In this document: positions 43,201-49,200 of the stretch, piece by piece
Position numbering within the stretch: position 1 is the stretch's first letter
Layout: each line of letters begins with the position of its first letter
From: Escherichia coli
GTDB taxonomy: Bacteria; Pseudomonadota; Gammaproteobacteria; Enterobacterales; Enterobacteriaceae
Assembly (NCBI RefSeq): GCF_048403405.1
Contig: NZ_CP183129.1
Reading direction: 5' to 3' (one strand)
DNA length: 64,000 nucleotides
Program-made: the position numbers

Positions 43201-46200
43201 AGCCGTACCGCGATTAACAACATCAAAAAATTCTGGTCGCTGACGGCGAAAGGCTGCATGTTCGGCAAGAACATCACCAGTCCTGCAAATCCGCGCGAGA
43301 CGCAGCCGCACTTCTTCGAATCCCGATTCCCTGAGCTGTTAAAGCTGCTCGATACCGTTCATTGAGGTGACCGTGAGAGCACTACTGACCCCTGAAATTG
43401 CCCCGCGTATGGGGATCGTATTGTTCAGACCAGGTTCAGAGCTGATGCCCCTGTTTATGCAGGGGCGTGTCCTGCTGGAGCCTGAGCCGGAACGTTATTC
43501 ATCTTTCGCCAGTGGTGCCGTTCCGGCGGCATCACAACCGCTGGCGGATGATCCTGCCGTTCGGGCCGTGTTCCGCAATGAGGCAGTGATCCGTCGTGCT
43601 GGTGGCGTGGAATGTCTTGAAAGCTGGTTACTTCGTGAAAAAGGCTGCCAGTGGCCTCATTCCGACTGGCACAGCGAGAACATGACCACAATGCGACACG
43701 CTCCGGGTGCAATCCGTCTGTGCTGGCACTGCGATAATCAGCTGCGCGATCAGTTCACGGAACGGCTGGAATCAATGGCAACGGATAACTGTGCCCGCTG
43801 GGTGTTGTCTGTTGTGCGTCGGGATCTCGGTTTTGATGACAGTCACGTTGTGACAATGCCGGAACTGTGCTGGTGGCTGATTCGTAATGATCTGGCGGAT
43901 GCCTTACCGGAAAGTGCAGCCCGTAAGGCACTGAGATTACCGAAGCCTGTTGTGCCGACTGTTACCCGGGAAAGTGACCTTGTGCCTTCGGTTCCTGCCA
44001 CCAGCATCATCCGGGATAAGGCGAAAAAGGTGCTGGCGCTGAAAGTGGATCCGGAGTCGCCGGAGTCTTTTATGTTACGCCCAAAACGTCGCCGCTGGGT
44101 TAATGAAAAGTACACGCGCTGGGTTAAGACACAGCCGTGTGCATGTTGTGGAAAGCCCGCTGATGATCCCCACCACCTGATAGGTCACGGTCAGGGTGGA
44201 ATGGGAACAAAAGCGCATGACCTTTTTGTGTTGCCTTTGTGCAGAAAGCATCACGACGAGCTGCATGCGGATACCGTGGCATTTGAAGAGAAGTATGGTT
44301 CCCAACTGGAGCTGATATTTCGTTTTATCGATCGCGCGCTGGCGATTGGTGTGCTGTCCTGATTTTGTGGAGAAAGTTGATGCGTGATATTCAGATGGTT
44401 CTTGAACGCTGGGGGGCATGGGCGGCAAGTGGTAACACCGGGGTGGACTATTCTCCGATCGCTGCCGGATTCAAAGGACTTTTACCATCTGCCACTAAAC
44501 CACGTCCGGCCTGCTGCGATGATGACGGACTTATCATTGAAAACTGTCTTGCTCGTCTGAAGCAGAAAAAACCTGAGGAGTATTCGCTTCTCATTGCTCA
44601 TTATCTGTTGCGAATATCAAAAAGACAGATAGCCAGGACGAGAAAGAAAAGCGAAAAAGCAATACGAATTGAGATGCAGATAGCCGAAGGGTTTATTGAC
44701 GGATGTTTGTCTGTGCTGGGGGTAAGACTGGAGATGGACGACTGGCTGCTAAAAAAGTAAAAAATGATTAGTGCGGTCCGCAAAAAGTATGTCAGTATGT
44801 TAAGAGTGGTTACTTCGCCACACAGCTTAAACCCGCCGCGAGCGGGTTTTTTATGGCTGAACGTTAAATGCGCTGGTGGTTGTGAATGCCGACTGCGGCG
44901 GTATTTTGGCGTGACGGCGCAGGTGCCGTATACCGATGTCTGGACGCATAAACCGGTACAGTTCTATCCCGGGAAACATCCGTGCGAAAAACCGGCAGAA
45001 ATGCTGCAGCAGATAATCAGCGCTAGCAGTCGTCCGGGTGACCTGATTGCAGATTTTTTCATGGGGTCGGGTTCGACAGTGAAAGCGGCACTGGCGCTCG
45101 GGCGTCGTGCAATTGGCGTTGAGCTGGAGACTGAACGTTTTGAGCAGACGGTTCGGGAAGTACAGGATTTAGTCAGCCAGAACGGATGATATTGAAGAAT
45201 TAATTACGCGTCGTTATTATGCGGCTCCCGGCCCTTTAGCTCAGTGGTGAGAGCGAGCGACTCATAATCGCCAGGTCGCTGGTTCAAATCCAGCAAGGGC
45301 CACCATCACATACCGCCATTAGCTCATCAGGATAGAGCACCAGCCTTCGAAGCTGGTTGCGCGGGGTTCGAGTCCTCGATGGCGGTCCATTATCTGTACC
45401 CTGCGTTGTTAGCTCAACCGGACAGAGCAATTGCCTTCTAAGCAATCGGTCACTGGTTCGAATCCAGTACAACGCGCCAGACTTATTTTTCCCGGCTCGC
45501 TTTTGCGGGCCTTTTTTTTAAATGTCTCACAATTCAGACGGTTGACAGTTGTCTGTTTTGCGGGGAGTTTGTTAAAAGAAACTGGCATGGTGAATCCCCC
45601 TGTGCGGATGGGCAATCAGCGAGTAGGTATATGGGATAATCGCGGATTCAGGTGCTGGTACTGAATTCACCGGGAGGCACCCGGCACCATGCAGTTGACT
45701 GAAACCATGTATACTCTCAGGCCCCACGCACATGTGTTGGGGCCTTTTTACATGCAAAAAAAAGCCCGCATATTGATACGGGCGGCAAGGAACAAAAAAC
45801 GTGAAGTGATCTATTCAGCCAGTGGATAATACCCTGACGTTACCATATTGCGCAATCGCGCATTCTTTCTTTTTCGCTCCCCTTATAACTACGCCATCCG
45901 TTCGCTGCGGAGGTGAGGCTATGAAATCCATGGATAAAATTTCAACGGGCATTGCCTACGGCACCTCCGCAGGCAGTGCTGGCTACTGGTTTTTACAGTG
46001 GCTTGATCAGGTCAGTCCGTCACAGTGGGCTGCGATTGGTGTACTGGGGAGTCTGGTTCTGGGCTTCCTGACATATCTGACTAACCTGTATTTCAAAATC
46101 AGAGAGGACCGTCGTAAGGCTGCACGGGGAGAGTAATTCAATGACTCAAAACTATGAACTGATTGTGAAAGGGATCCGCAATTTTGAGAATAAAGTTACG

Positions 46201-49200
46201 GTAACTTTAGCGTTACGGGACAAAAAACGCTTTGACGGTGAAATTTTTGACCTGGACATCTCGCTGGACCGTGTTGAAGGTGCCGCGCTGGAGTTTTATG
46301 AGGAAGCAGCCAGAAGGAGCATCAGACAGGTCTTCCTGGATGTTGCTGCCGGGTTATGTGAAGGGGGTGAGCAGTCGCCGGAAAAGCGCCCCGTAATTTT
46401 AGAGGCGCAGAATGTGTGGATAACCTACAAAGGAAAGCTACCGGGAAGAATTACTGGTTCTCTGAAGACTCCACCGCTGGGCTGAAGACTTAACATATCC
46501 AGGTATTCGGAACCGATAAATCCTGATAAATATCCATGAACGCAAAAATCAGATACGGCCTGTCGGCTGCCGTTCTGGCGCTGATTGCCGCAGGTGCGCC
46601 TGCGCCTGACATTCTCGACCAGTTTCTGGATGAAAAGGAAGGCAACCACACCACGGCATACCGTGATGGTGCAGGTATCTGGACCATCTGCCGTGGTGCC
46701 ATCATGGTGGATGGCAAACCTGTCGTTCCGGGCATGAAGTTGTCGAAGGAAAAATGCGAACAGGTTAACGCCATTGAGCGTGATAAAGCGCTGGCGTGGG
46801 TGGAGAAAAACATCAGAGTGCCGCTGACCGAACCCCAGAAAGCGGGGATCGCGTCATTCTGTCCGTACAACATTGGCCCCGGTAAGTGTTTCCCGTCGAC
46901 GTTTTATAAGCGGCTGAATGCCGGTGATCGTAAGGGGGCATGCGAAGCGATTCGCTGGTGGATTAAGGATGGTGGGCGCGATTGCCGCATACGTTCAAAT
47001 AACTGCTATGGGCAAGTTATTCGTCGTGACCAGGAAAGCGCATTAGCCTGTTGGGGGATAGAGCAGTGAGCAGAGTCGCCGCGATTATTTATGCTCTGGT
47101 TATCTGCATCATCGTCTGCCTGTCGTGGGCGGTTAATCATTACCGTGATAACGCCATCACCTACAAAGAACAGCGTGATAAAAAAGTCAGTGAGCTGAAG
47201 CAGCTGACCGCCACCATCGCTGACATGCAGCAGCGTCAGCGTGATGTTGCTGCGCTCGATGCAAAATACTCGAGGGAATTAGCCGATGCGAGAGCTGAAA
47301 ATGAAACTCTTCGCGCTGACGTTGCCGCTGGTCGTAAGCGCCTGCGGATCAACGCCACCTGCCCCGGTACCGTGCGTGAAGCCACCGGCACCTCCGGCGT
47401 GGATAATGCAACCAGCCCCCGACTGGAAGACACCGCTGAACGGGATTATTTCACCCTCAGAGAGCGGCTGATGACGATGCAGATGCAACTGGAAGGGGCA
47501 CAGGAGTATATCCGCACTCAGTGCATTAAGTAGCCTTTTTATCGTGGTAAACATTTCGCAGGGTATGAGGTATTTATGCCATCACTAATCCCACGAGCCT
47601 GCCGTAAGCGTGGATGTGCAGGAACAACCACAGACAGTTCTGGTTACTGCGATAAACATCGTGGCGAAGGATGGGTACAGCATCAACGAGGACTGAGTCG
47701 CCACCAGCGTGGCTATGGTTCGAAATGGGATGCCATACGTGCGCGCATACTGAAGCGTGATAATCATCTGTGTCAGAACTGCCTGCGCAATGGGAGAGCC
47801 GTTGAAGCCAGAACTGTGGACCACATCATTCCGAAAGCTCATGGTGGCACGGATGCAGACAGTAACCTGCAGAGTCTGTGCTGGCCCTGTCATAAAGCAA
47901 AAACAGCGCGCGAACGCATCAATTGATAACAGCTCCCATCTGCAGGGGAGGGGCGGGTCAAATCTCTGCAACCCTGGCTGTTCAGTACCGCCGCCTGACC
48001 CTTCCTCACATCGCCGCAGGTTCGAAAACTTTTTTTTGGAAATGTGAACAAACGATTGATAGGTAAGACCGATTATGTCAGGACCTCCGAAAACCCCGCC
48101 ACGCCTGCATTTGATTCGAGGCAACCCCTCAAAGCGCCCCGTTAAAGACCACAAAAAAACCGCTAAAAAGGATGAAAAAGGTCTTCCTAAAATTCCGCAG
48201 CATTTAGGGGCTCAGGGGAAGTACTGGTTCAGGCGAATGGCGGAAGAGCTGAATGCGGAAGGGATCATTTCTCAGCTCGATGCACGTGCGCTCGAGTTAC
48301 TGGTGGAAGCCTACACCGAATACCGGCATCACTGCGAAATACTCGATGTTGAGGGTTATACCTACCGCACGAAAACGCAGAATGGCGATGTGCTGATCAA
48401 GGCACACCCGGCTGCTGCGATGAAGGCTGATGCCTGGAAGCGGATCCGGGCGATGCTTGCAGAATTTGGTATGTCACCGGCAAGCCGGGCAAAAGTAAAT
48501 ACCGCCGGACCGGATAATGTTGATCCGCTGGCAGAGCTTTTAAAAGCGAGAGACTGATGGCAAAAGTGGCTGACGGGATCCGCTACGCCGAACGTGTTGT
48601 TGCAGGAGAAATTGTTGCTGGCGAATTTGTCCGCCTGGCCTGCCAGCGTTTTCTTGATGATCTGAAGTACGGCGAAAAGCGGGGGATTTATTTCAGTGAA
48701 CCCCGTGCGCAGCACATCCTGAATTTCTACAAATTTGTGCCTCATGTAAAAGGGGCACTGGCAGGCCAGCCCATTGAGTTGATGGACTGGCATGTATTTA
48801 TCCTCATTAATATTTTTGGTTTTGTCATTCCGCTGGTCAATGAAGAAACCGGGGAAGTTGTCATGCGCAGCGATGGCAGCGGACGTCCGGTGATGGTGCG
48901 CCGGTTCCGGACGGCGTACAACGAAGTCGCCCGTAAAAACGCAAAATCAACCCTGTCATCGGGTATCGGCCTGTATATGACGGGGGCAGATAGTGAAGGC
49001 GGAGCTGAGGTGTATTCAGCCGCAACCACGCGTGACCAGGCCAGAATCGTGTTTGAAGACGCCAAAAATATGGTCAGAAAAGCCCGGTCGACACTCGGGC
49101 GGTTGTTTGATTTCAACAAGCTGGCGATTTACCAGGAGCAGAGCGCATCAAAATTTGAACCGCTTTCCTCGGATGCAAACAACCTGGACGGTCTGAACAT

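What the first reader, a model, noticed from the sequence alone, without database searches (positions are those of the whole stretch)
45921..47533. Lysis cassette with dual-start holin, probable SAR endolysin and embedded spanin pair
The holin begins MKSM, the class of dual-start motif that yields antiholin and holin. The endolysin has an N-terminal hydrophobic segment consistent with a signal-anchor-release lysozyme. Rz starts at a GTG overlapping the endolysin stop. Rz1 (lipobox LVVSAC) is entirely embedded in Rz in the +1 frame. An extra 114-aa ORF of unknown role lies between holin and endolysin.
Basis: partly seen in the sequence, partly recalled or inferred. Interest (0 to 1): 0.3.

Follow-up and report, generated by a model that had tools for sequence, protein, structure and literature searches.

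The report
Ordinary phage-21-type prophage lysis cassette
This is the standard, already annotated cell-bursting gene set of a lambda-like prophage in E. coli (phage 21 holin, exported lysozyme, Rz/Rz1 pair, plus the common small gene ydfR), so it is ordinary rather than new.

Summary
Window 45921-47533 (+) holds five intact genes:
- S, 71 aa, starting MKSM.
- ydfR, 114 aa.
- R, 177 aa.
- Rz, with a GTG start that overlaps the R stop.
- Rz1, wholly inside Rz in the +1 frame, with lipobox VSAC.

All five match curated families at E 1e-20 to 1e-49. All five exact protein sequences are already in public databases. The holin sequence carries the UniRef name of phage 21 S (HOLIN_BPP21).

The window is an E. 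coli chromosome carrying a lambdoid prophage next to yecE. The prophage part is 100% identical to NZ_CP071002.1, where PGAP annotates every cassette gene except Rz1.

The cassette is a mosaic of known modules. S-ydfR-R is arranged as in K-12 Qin (essQ-ydfR-rrrQ). Rz/Rz1 are the lambda/DLP12/933W type.

The most likely mechanism is the pinholin and SAR-endolysin pathway, followed by spanin-mediated outer-membrane disruption. The SAR call is supported only computationally: catalytic E35/D44/T50 are in register with R21, the N-terminus is Ala/Gly-rich and conserved, and the AF2 model fits full-length R21 best. A cleaved signal peptide is not excluded.

The "extra ORF" is YdfR/DUF1327. It is found in 75% of complete E. 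coli genomes and is absent from 933W and DLP12. Its function is still unsettled. Interest is low.

The parts
45921..46136 (+). S gene: class II holin. The 71-aa product from Met1 is the antiholin form (S21-71).
   Evidence: PF04971 E 8.6e-36. phrog_9876 and phrog_20, both holin. The exact sequence is named HOLIN_BPP21 in UniRef. PGAP calls it 'class II holin family protein'. It is 86% identical to K-12 EssD and 83% to EssQ.
45930..46136 (+). Second start (Met4), giving the 68-aa pinholin form (S21-68).
   Evidence: An in-frame ATG three codons after Met1, with Lys2 between them. The dual-start function is taken from the literature on S21 (PMC9636201). It was not tested here.
45910..45919 (+). 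Shine-Dalgarno tract GGAGGTGAGG serving the two holin starts.
   Evidence: Read directly from the sequence. A local RNA fold sequesters it, with z = -2.2. Conservation of that fold across 4 homologues was inconclusive.
46141..46485 (+). ydfR: a YdfR/DUF1327 family gene (114 aa), cytoplasmic, an accessory gene inside the cassette.
   Evidence: PF07041 E 5.9e-42. phrog_406 and phrog_2091, both of unknown function. No hydrophobic segment. Residues 1-69 are about 85% identical to K-12 YdfR, and the C-tail is unrelated. In the AF2 model residues 1-72 form three strands plus a helix at pLDDT 76-93, and residues 73-114 fall below 50.
46536..47069 (+). R: a GH24 (T4-lysozyme-like) muramidase with an N-terminal export/anchor segment (residues ~1-24). 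Probable SAR endolysin of the RrrQ/933W-R type.
   Evidence: PF00959 E 3.2e-24. PDB R21 3hde at E 5e-16, with E35/D44/T50 aligned position for position. 91.5% identical to K-12 RrrQ. AF2 mean pLDDT 86, with residues 11-30 at 94-96. Best fold match is full-length R21 (TMq 0.71-0.74, 174-183 columns) against truncated R21 (TMq 0.54).
47066..47533 (+). Rz: i-spanin, with an N-terminal transmembrane helix and a periplasmic coiled-coil domain. GTG start overlaps the R stop.
   Evidence: PF03245 E 1.6e-49. phrog_13 at 6e-80. The strongest hydrophobic segment of the cassette is residues 4-22 (KD 2.7-3.0, dG -3). 74% identical to DLP12 RzpD. PGAP calls the same start.
47286..47471 (+). Rz1: o-spanin, an outer-membrane lipoprotein precursor (lipobox VSAC, Cys20, Pro-rich mature part), embedded in Rz in the +1 frame.
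   Evidence: PF06085 E 1.1e-20. phrog_3198 at 1.7e-29. 67% identical to DLP12 RzoD. The frame is intact in 396 of 396 matching phage records. A GAGGGA Shine-Dalgarno lies 8 nt upstream. The exact sequence is named 'Rz1 family lipoprotein'.
44380..44760 (+). Q antiterminator gene. This is context: the regulator expected to drive late transcription through the cassette.
   Evidence: PF06530 E 1.6e-52. PGAP calls it 'antiterminator Q family protein'.
44828..44856 (+). Terminator-like hairpin AAACCCGC-CGCGA-GCGGGTTTTTT about 70 nt after the Q stop. It lies in the segment homologous to the 933W qut/terminator region.
   Evidence: Read from the sequence. Window 44797-44852 aligns to 933W L006 193-248, which is annotated there as qut plus a rho-independent terminator. 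The consensus scan missed it.
45230..45479 (+). Three tRNA genes, equivalent to ileZ-argN-argO, lying between Q and S as in Stx phages.
   Evidence: ARAGORN. PGAP. 91% DNA identity to the 933W tRNA block.
45494..45521 (+). Terminator-like hairpin plus T-run after the tRNAs. It corresponds to the 933W terminator upstream of stx.
   Evidence: Consensus scan. Homology to 933W L006 886-909.

Best explanation
This is the late-operon lysis cassette of an apparently intact lambdoid prophage inserted next to yecE in E. coli. It most likely works by the phage 21 pinholin and SAR-endolysin pathway.

Proposed sequence of events:
1. Q-modified RNA polymerase reads through the terminators and the tRNA block between Q and S (inferred from homology to 933W).
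2. S is translated from Met1 and Met4. Met1 gives the antiholin S21-71 and Met4 the pinholin S21-68 (known for this exact protein).
3. Both products accumulate in the inner membrane. At the programmed time the weakly hydrophobic TMD1 leaves the bilayer, TMD2 forms small heptameric pinholes, and the proton-motive force collapses.
4. R has meanwhile been exported by Sec and held inactive on the periplasmic face by its N-terminal Ala/Gly-rich segment. It is now released, refolds with that segment packed into the enzyme body, and degrades the murein through the E35-D44-T50 site (inferred).
5. Rz (inner-membrane i-spanin) and Rz1 (outer-membrane lipoprotein o-spanin, encoded inside Rz in the +1 frame) form a periplasm-spanning complex. 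Once freed from the murein mesh, it disrupts the outer membrane.

YdfR is a cytoplasmic accessory protein co-transcribed between S and R. It is not needed for the pathway. Its best current lead is binding of the RNase E catalytic domain and RNA.
For: Family assignments for all five genes at E 1e-20 to 1e-49.

Holin:
- The exact sequence equals the UniRef entry HOLIN_BPP21 'Antiholin'.
- TMD1 (residues 8-28) is weakly hydrophobic (KD 0.2-0.4, 55-60% Gly/Ala/Ser/Thr). TMD2 (residues 36-57) is a normal TMD.
- Published S21-68/S21-71 mechanism: PMC9636201.

Endolysin:
- R21 crystal-structure sequence match at E 5e-16, with E35/D44/T50 in register.
- N-terminus has 2 basic residues followed by a 15-17-residue segment that is 53% Gly/Ala/Ser/Thr. 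Pro sits at +1 of both A-x-A sites.
- The segment is nearly invariant across Escherichia, Salmonella, Citrobacter, Klebsiella, Hafnia and other genera.
- AF2 gives pLDDT 94-96 for residues 11-30.
- The model matches full-length R21 and the DLP12 endolysin (TMq 0.71-0.74, 172-183 columns) better than SAR-less R21 (TMq 0.54, 141 columns).
- Literature: 99% of Stx phages carry this predicted SAR-endolysin and pinholin pairing (PMC8136144).

Spanins:
- 74% and 67% identical to DLP12 RzpD and RzoD.
- Rz1 is intact in 396 of 396 phage matches and in all 6 loci inspected.
- The lambda o-spanin family is documented to include 933W and 21, with the embedded +1 architecture and the lipobox consensus [LVI][ASTVI][GAS]C (PMC6139136).

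Prophage integrity:
- The annotation runs continuously from integrase through repressor to head and tail genes.
- The prophage is 100% identical to the copy in a strain whose flanking chromosome differs at 499 sites.

YdfR is dispensable: 933W has S directly followed by R, and DLP12 has essD directly followed by rrrD.

YdfR lead: K-12 YdfR binds the RNase E N-terminal domain in BACTH and pull-down assays and co-purifies RNA (PMC13232886).
Against: - Nothing here was tested in cells.
- The R hydrophobic core (Y7-A21) is shorter than the ~20-residue SAR domains of R21, P1 Lyz or Mu gp22. It resembles a signal-peptide h-region. A-A-G|A at residues 18-21 is a permissible signal peptidase I site (read from the sequence).
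- No Shine-Dalgarno is recognisable upstream of R.
- The late promoter was not located. The consensus scan found no more promoter or terminator sites than in shuffled sequence.
- The RNase E link for YdfR comes from overexpression of the K-12 paralogue, whose C-terminal 45 residues are unrelated to this one. That paper reports little effect on the transcriptome.
Confidence: 0.88

Rival explanations
1. The lysozyme N-terminus is an ordinary cleavable Sec signal peptide. R would then be secreted as a soluble periplasmic enzyme, as with the fOg44-type secreted endolysins. The pinholin would act only by dissipating the PMF to activate or sensitise, not by releasing a membrane tether.
For: - The layout is n-region MNAKIR, an h-region of only ~15 residues, then a Pro-containing c-region AGAPAPD.
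- The summed Hessa dG of the best 19-residue window is +5.4 kcal/mol. This is close to the Rz1 signal peptide (+6.9) and higher than the RrrD/R21 SAR segment (+0.8).
- A-A-G|A is a permissible signal peptidase I site.
- Many homologues have A-G-A|S.
Against: - Pro sits at +1 of both A-x-A motifs in this allele.
- The segment and the following ILDQFL are almost invariant across genera. That is unlike signal peptides and is expected if the segment becomes part of the folded enzyme.
- AF2 places residues 11-30 with pLDDT 94-96.
- The whole model superposes on full-length R21 over 174-183 columns, against 141 columns for SAR-less R21.
- The catalytic Glu35 lies only 11 residues after the segment, in the same register as R21.
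- The literature classes this pham as R21-like SAR (PMC8136144).
Confidence: 0.12
2. YdfR is a genuine lysis-cassette component. It would be a cytoplasmic regulator of the pinholin or of endolysin release, in the manner of T4 RIII or the Mu gp25 'releasin', rather than an unrelated accessory gene.
For: - It sits between S and R, starting 4 nt after the S stop and with its own Shine-Dalgarno.
- Homologues down to 47-49% identity are still found between a P21-type holin and the 177-aa lysozyme.
- S and the YdfR N-domain are homologous to Qin as one continuous block.
- Non-holin proteins that control SAR endolysins do exist (PMC9239132).
Against: - Closely related S-R pairs work without it in phage 21, DLP12 and 933W.
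- It has no membrane segment.
- The most distant homologue lies between tail genes I and J, not in a lysis cassette.
- The only experimental data point to RNase E and RNA binding (PMC13232886).
- It has no fold or sequence relation to RIII or DUF2730.
Confidence: 0.12
3. The cassette is a silent relic in a defective prophage, like Qin or DLP12 in K-12, and no longer lyses anything.
For: - Two pseudogene remnants lie just upstream: a truncated methyltransferase at 44893-45189 and a hypothetical fragment at 45575-45733.
- The homologous cassettes best known from K-12 are in cryptic prophages.
- R lacks a visible Shine-Dalgarno.
Against: - All five reading frames are intact.
- The holin is identical to the functional phage 21 protein.
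- The prophage has a complete gene set from integrase to tail fibre J within the window.
- It is base-for-base identical to the copy in a strain with a diverged chromosome, which suggests recent transfer as a phage.
- Induced phages from E. coli isolates carry the same cassette at 91-93% identity.
Confidence: 0.06

Closest known systems
Phage 21 lysis cassette S21-R21-Rz21-Rz1-21 (pinholin and SAR endolysin paradigm)
   Same: - The holin protein is identical.
- Gene order is S, R, Rz with embedded Rz1.
- The endolysin is a GH24 enzyme with an N-terminal export segment and the E35/D44/T50 triad in the same register.
- The spanins are lambda-type.
   Different: - The endolysin is only about 29% identical to the R21-like RrrD. 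It belongs to the RrrQ/933W-R subgroup, which has 8 Cys and a 7-10-residue Cys-flanked insertion near residues 150-157.
- Its hydrophobic segment is shorter and Ala-rich rather than Gly-rich.
- ydfR is inserted between S and R.
E. coli K-12 Qin prophage essQ-ydfR-rrrQ-rzpQ/rzoQ
   Same: - Same S-ydfR-R order.
- R is 91.5% identical to RrrQ, and S is 83% identical to EssQ.
- The YdfR N-domain is about 85% identical.
   Different: - Qin has an unrelated spanin pair (DUF2514 RzpQ with RzoQ). The window has lambda-type Rz/Rz1.
- The YdfR C-terminal 45 residues are unrelated.
- Qin ydfR overlaps rrrQ, whereas here a 50-nt gap separates the two genes.
Stx2 phage 933W late region (Q-tRNAs-stx2-nanS-p-S-R-ant-Rz/Rz1-bor)
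   Same: - The tRNA block and its flanking promoter and terminator are 91% identical.
- R is 87% identical at DNA level (91% protein), and Rz/Rz1 are 90% identical at DNA level (Rz1 protein 90%).
   Different: - There are no stx, nanS-p, ant or bor genes here.
- 933W S starts MYQM, lacks Lys2, and is only 76% identical at DNA level.
- 933W has no ydfR.
Lambda / DLP12 Rz-Rz1 (RzpD-RzoD) embedded two-component spanin
   Same: - Same architecture and the same relative position of Rz1 (0.47-0.87 of Rz).
- Rz is 74% and Rz1 67% identical.
- DLP12 rzpD also uses a GTG that overlaps the lysozyme stop.
   Different: - In lambda, these spanins follow a canonical three-TMD holin S105 and a cytoplasmic transglycosylase R.
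- The lipobox is VSAC here, against VVGC.

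Membership tests
P21 holin S family (class II holin / pinholin, Pfam PF04971) | Sequence membership | tested here: met
   PF04971 at 122 bits against a cutoff of 26, covering profile positions 1-63 of 64. The exact sequence is named HOLIN_BPP21.
P21 holin S family (class II holin / pinholin, Pfam PF04971) | Two transmembrane segments, the first weakly hydrophobic (SAR-like), followed by a charged C-terminal tail | tested here: met
   TMD1, residues 8-28: KD 0.2-0.4, 55-60% Gly/Ala/Ser/Thr. TMD2, residues 36-57: KD 1.4-2.1. The tail is [13 protein letters not shown]. These are hydropathy estimates only. No dedicated topology predictor was available.
P21 holin S family (class II holin / pinholin, Pfam PF04971) | Dual-start motif Met1-Lys2-x-Met4, giving antiholin and holin | tested here: met
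   The motif MKSM is present, preceded by a Shine-Dalgarno tract, and is shared with EssD and EssQ. Actual use of both starts is not testable here. It is published for S21 (PMC9636201).
P21 holin S family (class II holin / pinholin, Pfam PF04971) | Forms small heptameric pinholes that depolarise the membrane but do not pass endolysin | not testable with these tools
   Taken from the literature on the identical protein (PMC9636201).
SAR endolysin, R21 type (GH24 muramidase) | T4-lysozyme-like fold with the catalytic motif E-x8-D/C-x5-T | tested here: met
   E35-x8-D44-x5-T50 is aligned to R21 3hde residue for residue and invariant in 24 homologues. PF00959. Fold match to 3hde and 4zpu.
SAR endolysin, R21 type (GH24 muramidase) | N-terminal segment with 1-3 basic residues followed by a charge-free, weakly hydrophobic TMD rich in Gly/Ala/Ser/Thr | tested here: inconclusive
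   K4 and R6 are followed by the charge-free stretch Y7-P24, 53% Gly/Ala/Ser/Thr. However, only ~15 residues are hydrophobic, which is shorter than the ~20 described for Mu gp22 or R21 (PMC9239132).
SAR endolysin, R21 type (GH24 muramidase) | The segment is not cleaved, and it is released from the membrane on depolarisation or by a pinholin | not testable with these tools
   Indirect support only:
- Pro at +1 of the A-x-A sites.
- Cross-genus conservation of the segment.
- High-confidence packing in the AF2 model.
- Better fit to full-length than to truncated R21.
SAR endolysin, R21 type (GH24 muramidase) | No Cys in the SAR segment (non-covalent R21-type control, as opposed to P1 Lyz disulfide isomerisation) | tested here: met
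   Residues 1-30 contain no Cys. The 8 Cys all lie in the catalytic body.
Lambda-type embedded two-component spanin (Rz PF03245 / Rz1 PF06085) | i-spanin with a single N-terminal TMD and a periplasmic helical domain bearing Cys | tested here: met
   PF03245 at 168 bits. TMD at residues 4-22, KD 2.7-3.0. Cys98 and Cys152 align with the RzpD cysteines.
Lambda-type embedded two-component spanin (Rz PF03245 / Rz1 PF06085) | o-spanin with a lipoprotein signal, a lipobox [LVI][ASTVI][GAS]C, a non-Asp +2 residue, and a Pro-rich mature part with a Cys | tested here: met
   Lipobox VSAC with Cys20, Gly at +2, Cys30, and a Pro-rich mature peptide (12 Pro by direct count in the printed 42 residues). Consensus from PMC6139136. 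PF06085 at 74 bits.
Lambda-type embedded two-component spanin (Rz PF03245 / Rz1 PF06085) | o-spanin gene wholly inside the i-spanin gene in the +1 frame, with the frame conserved in relatives | tested here: met
   The offset is 220 nt and the span is 0.47-0.87 of Rz. The frame is intact in 396 of 396 phage matches.
YdfR family (DUF1327, PF07041) | Sequence membership | tested here: met
   PF07041 at 142 bits against a cutoff of 25. The exact sequence is named 'YdfR family protein'.
YdfR family (DUF1327, PF07041) | Binding of the RNase E catalytic domain and RNA (reported for K-12 YdfR residues 1-72) | not testable with these tools
   The N-domain is about 85% identical to K-12 YdfR. The function is taken from PMC13232886 and not shown for this allele.

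The most novel reading that the evidence does not exclude
YdfR (46141-46485) may not be a passive passenger. It could be a late-expressed cytoplasmic factor serving the lytic programme, either by modulating host RNase E to protect or shape the long late transcript, or by tuning pinholin timing. The family is almost confined to Escherichia/Shigella prophages. It keeps a fixed slot between a P21-type holin and an RrrQ-type lysozyme even at 47-49% identity. It has a well-predicted beta3-alpha N-domain with no detectable structural relative and freely swapped C-terminal tails.
Probability: 0.15. Interest if true: 0.4.

Novelty: already known. Interest (0 to 1): 0.07.

Why it matters
It matters little as a discovery. 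The cassette is the textbook pinholin, SAR-endolysin and spanin system. The holin is the phage 21 protein itself, and homologous cassette DNA is found in nearly all of the 5,426 complete E. coli genomes searched. Its practical value is for annotation. It shows that the embedded Rz1 gene is still missed by the RefSeq pipeline on this DNA. It also flags an apparently intact, stx-negative relative of Stx phages at yecE. The one open biological question is the role of YdfR, a very common prophage gene with only one recent experimental lead.

Tried and rejected
- **Defence-system role for S, YdfR or R.** No PADLOC hits. NCBIfam gave nothing above its curated cutoffs.
- **Remote YdfR homology.** Only 64 representatives turned up among 1.84 billion proteins. 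The one non-family hit was a 3128-aa protein with G2F repeats. Its score comes from six near-identical 52-residue repeats, each at about 30 bits. I reject it as not significant.
- **Conserved RNA structure controlling the two holin starts.** The single-sequence fold gave z = -2.2. A four-sequence consensus reached only -4 kcal/mol with 2 covarying pairs. This is inconclusive and was not pursued.
- **Locating pR'.** The consensus scan found no more sites than in shuffled sequence. Only positional homology to the 933W qut/terminator segment could be shown.
- **Literature confirmation of the S21 sequence.** A search for the printed string found nothing. The exact-sequence database look-up settled the identity instead.
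- **Experimental work on RrrQ-type endolysins as SAR.** A literature search found none.
- **The TTG at 47051 as the Rz start.** Rejected. Homologues begin MSRV at the GTG/ATG position, a GGGGGA Shine-Dalgarno precedes the GTG, and PGAP agrees.

Full report
**Observation.**
- A 71-codon gene at 45921-46136 beginning ATG AAA TCC ATG (M-K-S-M). It is preceded by GGAGGTGAGG.
- A 114-codon gene at 46141-46485, starting 4 nt after the first gene's stop.
- A 177-codon gene at 46536-47069.
- A 155-codon gene whose GTG (47066) overlaps the preceding TGA as GTGA. It ends at 47533.
- A 61-codon ORF at 47286-47471 inside the fourth gene. The offset is 220 nt, which puts it in the +1 frame.

**Identity of the genes.** Pfam assigns them as follows:
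- P21 holin S, PF04971, 8.6e-36.
- DUF1327/YdfR, PF07041, 5.9e-42.
- Phage lysozyme, PF00959, 3.2e-24.
- Rz, PF03245, 1.6e-49.
- Rz1, PF06085, 1.1e-20.

PHROGs agrees, giving holin, two unknown-function families, endolysin and Rz-like spanins. An exact-sequence look-up finds all five proteins already in public collections. The holin (on more than 1000 contigs) carries the UniRef name 'Antiholin, RepID=HOLIN_BPP21', so it is the phage 21 S protein itself. The other four are named lysozyme, YdfR family protein, lysis protein and Rz1 family lipoprotein.

**Source and context.**
- Megablast places the 2-kb region at 100% identity in three complete E. coli genomes. At lower identity it matches 5305 of 5426 genomes and 535 phage records.
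- The whole window is collinear with NZ_CP071002.1. Window positions ~29,200-64,000 are identical to it. The chromosomal part (otsBA, flhDC, che, tor, cmoAB, yecN, yecE) differs at 499 sites without indels.
- The prophage runs from an integrase next to yecE through a LexA-like repressor, Cro, replication and Nin-region genes, and Q. It continues through the lysis cassette, HNH, P27-type terminase, HK97-type head genes and lambda-type tail genes, up to J at the window edge.
- PGAP annotates holin, YdfR, lysozyme and 'lysis protein' (Rz, with the same GTG start). It does not annotate Rz1.

**Mosaic relationships.**
- *K-12 Qin.* It has the same S-ydfR-R order. The window R is 91.5% identical to RrrQ and S is 83% identical to EssQ. 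YdfR residues 1-69 are about 85% identical, but the last 45 residues are unrelated. The Qin spanins are an unrelated type.
- *K-12 DLP12.* It lacks ydfR and has an R21-like lysozyme that is 29% identical to the window R. Its RzpD and RzoD are 74% and 67% identical to the window Rz and Rz1. RzpD also starts at a GTG overlapping the lysozyme stop.
- *933W.* It shares the tRNA block with its promoter and terminator (91%), R (87% DNA) and Rz/Rz1 (90% DNA). It has S directly abutting R, with ant and bor inserted around the spanins.

The cassette is therefore a recombinant of well-known modules.

**Regulation (inferred).**
- Q (PF06530) ends at 44760.
- A hairpin with a T-run at 44828-44856 lies in the segment homologous to the annotated qut/terminator of 933W.
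- A truncated methyltransferase pseudogene and three tRNA genes follow.
- A second terminator-like hairpin lies at 45494-45521, and a third is visible by eye at 45720-45750.
- This layout is that of a Q-antiterminated late operon. The promoter itself was not located, and the consensus scans were no better than shuffles.

**Mechanism.** For the identical S21 protein, the literature establishes four points:
- Met1 gives the antiholin S21-71 and Met4 the pinholin S21-68.
- The extra Lys2 holds TMD1 in the membrane.
- About 10^3 heptameric ~2-nm channels collapse the PMF.
- SAR endolysins are thereby released and activated (PMC9636201; PMC6139136; PMC9239132).

The hydropathy analysis here fits this. 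Holin TMD1 is barely hydrophobic, while TMD2 and the Rz TMD are normal.

Rz/Rz1 meet all the sequence criteria of the lambda spanin family:
- Lipobox VSAC.
- Gly at +2.
- A second Cys.
- A Pro-rich mature peptide.
- Position 0.47-0.87 of Rz (PMC6139136).

The Rz1 frame is uninterrupted in all 396 phage records that match it, down to 57% identity.

**Is R really a SAR endolysin?**

In favour:
- The R21 structure sequence aligns at E 5e-16, with E35, D44 and T50 at identical positions.
- The N-terminus has K4 and R6 followed by a charge-free Ala/Gly/Ser-rich stretch.
- Both A-x-A motifs are followed by Pro.
- The stretch and the following ILDQFL are nearly invariant across at least eight enterobacterial genera.
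- AF2 models residues 11-30 at pLDDT 94-96.
- The model superposes best on full-length R21 and the DLP12 endolysin (TMq 0.71-0.74, 172-183 columns). Against SAR-less R21 the figures are TMq 0.54 and 141 columns.
- A pinholin cannot export a cytoplasmic enzyme, so an exported R is required.
- A published survey classes this endolysin group as R21-like SAR (PMC8136144).

Against:
- The hydrophobic core is only about 15 residues.
- Its summed insertion free energy resembles that of the Rz1 signal peptide more than that of the R21 SAR segment.
- A-A-G|A is a possible cleavage site.

I put SAR at about 0.8 and a cleaved signal peptide at about 0.12. Only a fractionation and processing experiment can decide.

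**The extra ORF.**
- YdfR/DUF1327 has no hydrophobic segment.
- The family is small and taxonomically narrow. It has 308 clusters at 90% identity. Only 64 representatives at 50% identity turn up among 1.84 billion proteins.
- It is nevertheless very common. Homologous DNA is present in 4059 of 5426 complete E. coli genomes and in 101 phage records, including Stx1a and Stx2c phages.
- Members share an N-domain and carry different C-terminal tails, with total lengths from 94 to 287 aa.
- AF2 gives a confident three-strand-plus-helix N-domain (residues 1-72) and an unstructured tail.
- Nothing similar was found in PDB or BFVD.
- Homologues at 47-49% identity still lie between a P21-type holin and a 177-aa lysozyme. 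One at 39% identity lies between tail genes.
- Phage 21, DLP12 and 933W lack it, so it is dispensable for lysis.
- The only experimental lead is a 2026 study. K-12 YdfR residues 1-72 bind the RNase E catalytic domain and co-purify RNA (PMC13232886).

**Verdict.** This is a correct reading of an ordinary, already described and largely already annotated feature. Novelty is 'already known' and interest is 0.07. The residual open points are the SAR-versus-signal-peptide question for the RrrQ-type lysozyme and the role of YdfR.

Noticed in passing
window 45079-45920: Empty stx site. Window 45079-45520 is 91% identical to the 933W pT-ileZ-argN-argO-terminator block. Window 45523-45768 is 70% identical to 933W DNA just 3' of stxB2. 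The 1.33 kb that holds stx2AB in 933W is therefore replaced by 2 bp here. nanS-p and the following ORF are also missing. The prophage is a stx-negative relative of Stx phages.
   Followed up: partly
window 1-29147 versus 29200-64000: The prophage part of the window is base-for-base identical to NZ_CP071002.1. The adjoining chromosome differs at 499 sites with no indels. The same phage therefore sits at the same site (next to yecE/DUF72, integrase at ~29440-30753 on the minus strand) in diverged host backgrounds.
   Followed up: partly
window 44893-45189: A truncated site-specific DNA methyltransferase pseudogene (only the C-terminal part of PF01555) is wedged between Q and the tRNA genes.
   Followed up: no
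window 45230-45305: ARAGORN calls this tRNA Met (anticodon CAT). PGAP and the 933W annotation call the homologous gene tRNA-Ile (ileZ), i.e. the lysidine-modified Ile2 type.
   Followed up: no
window 46141-46535: YdfR family members keep the N-domain but carry different C-terminal tails. The 176/183-aa forms add a ~60-residue tail after LKTPP. The window allele stops at LKTPPLG and is followed by a 50-nt spacer. K-12 YdfR diverges already after residue 69. This looks like a recombination or deletion hot spot.
   Followed up: partly
window 46510-46535: No Shine-Dalgarno-like sequence precedes the lysozyme ATG; the leader is AU-rich. This differs from S, ydfR, Rz and Rz1. In Qin the homologous gene overlaps ydfR by 4 nt.
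   Followed up: no
window 45575-45785: This stretch holds a minus-strand pseudogene fragment (45575-45733), a minus-strand terminator-like hairpin (45783-45764) and a plus-strand hairpin with T-run (45720-45750). They are probably the remains of an accessory-gene (moron) locus upstream of S.
   Followed up: no
window 47576-50314: An HNH endonuclease gene sits immediately upstream of a P27-family small terminase and a large terminase. This is the usual HNH-assisted cos-cleavage arrangement of HK97-like phages.
   Followed up: no
window ~41003-41497: A PerC-family transcriptional regulator is encoded in the prophage early/Nin region, according to the RefSeq annotation of the identical DNA.
   Followed up: no
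P0158 (3128 aa): A giant protein with 14 G2F-like repeats matches YdfR residues 6-57 at 33% identity in six near-identical repeats. The summed E-value (6e-10) is inflated by the repetition. I treated it as not significant.
   Followed up: yes
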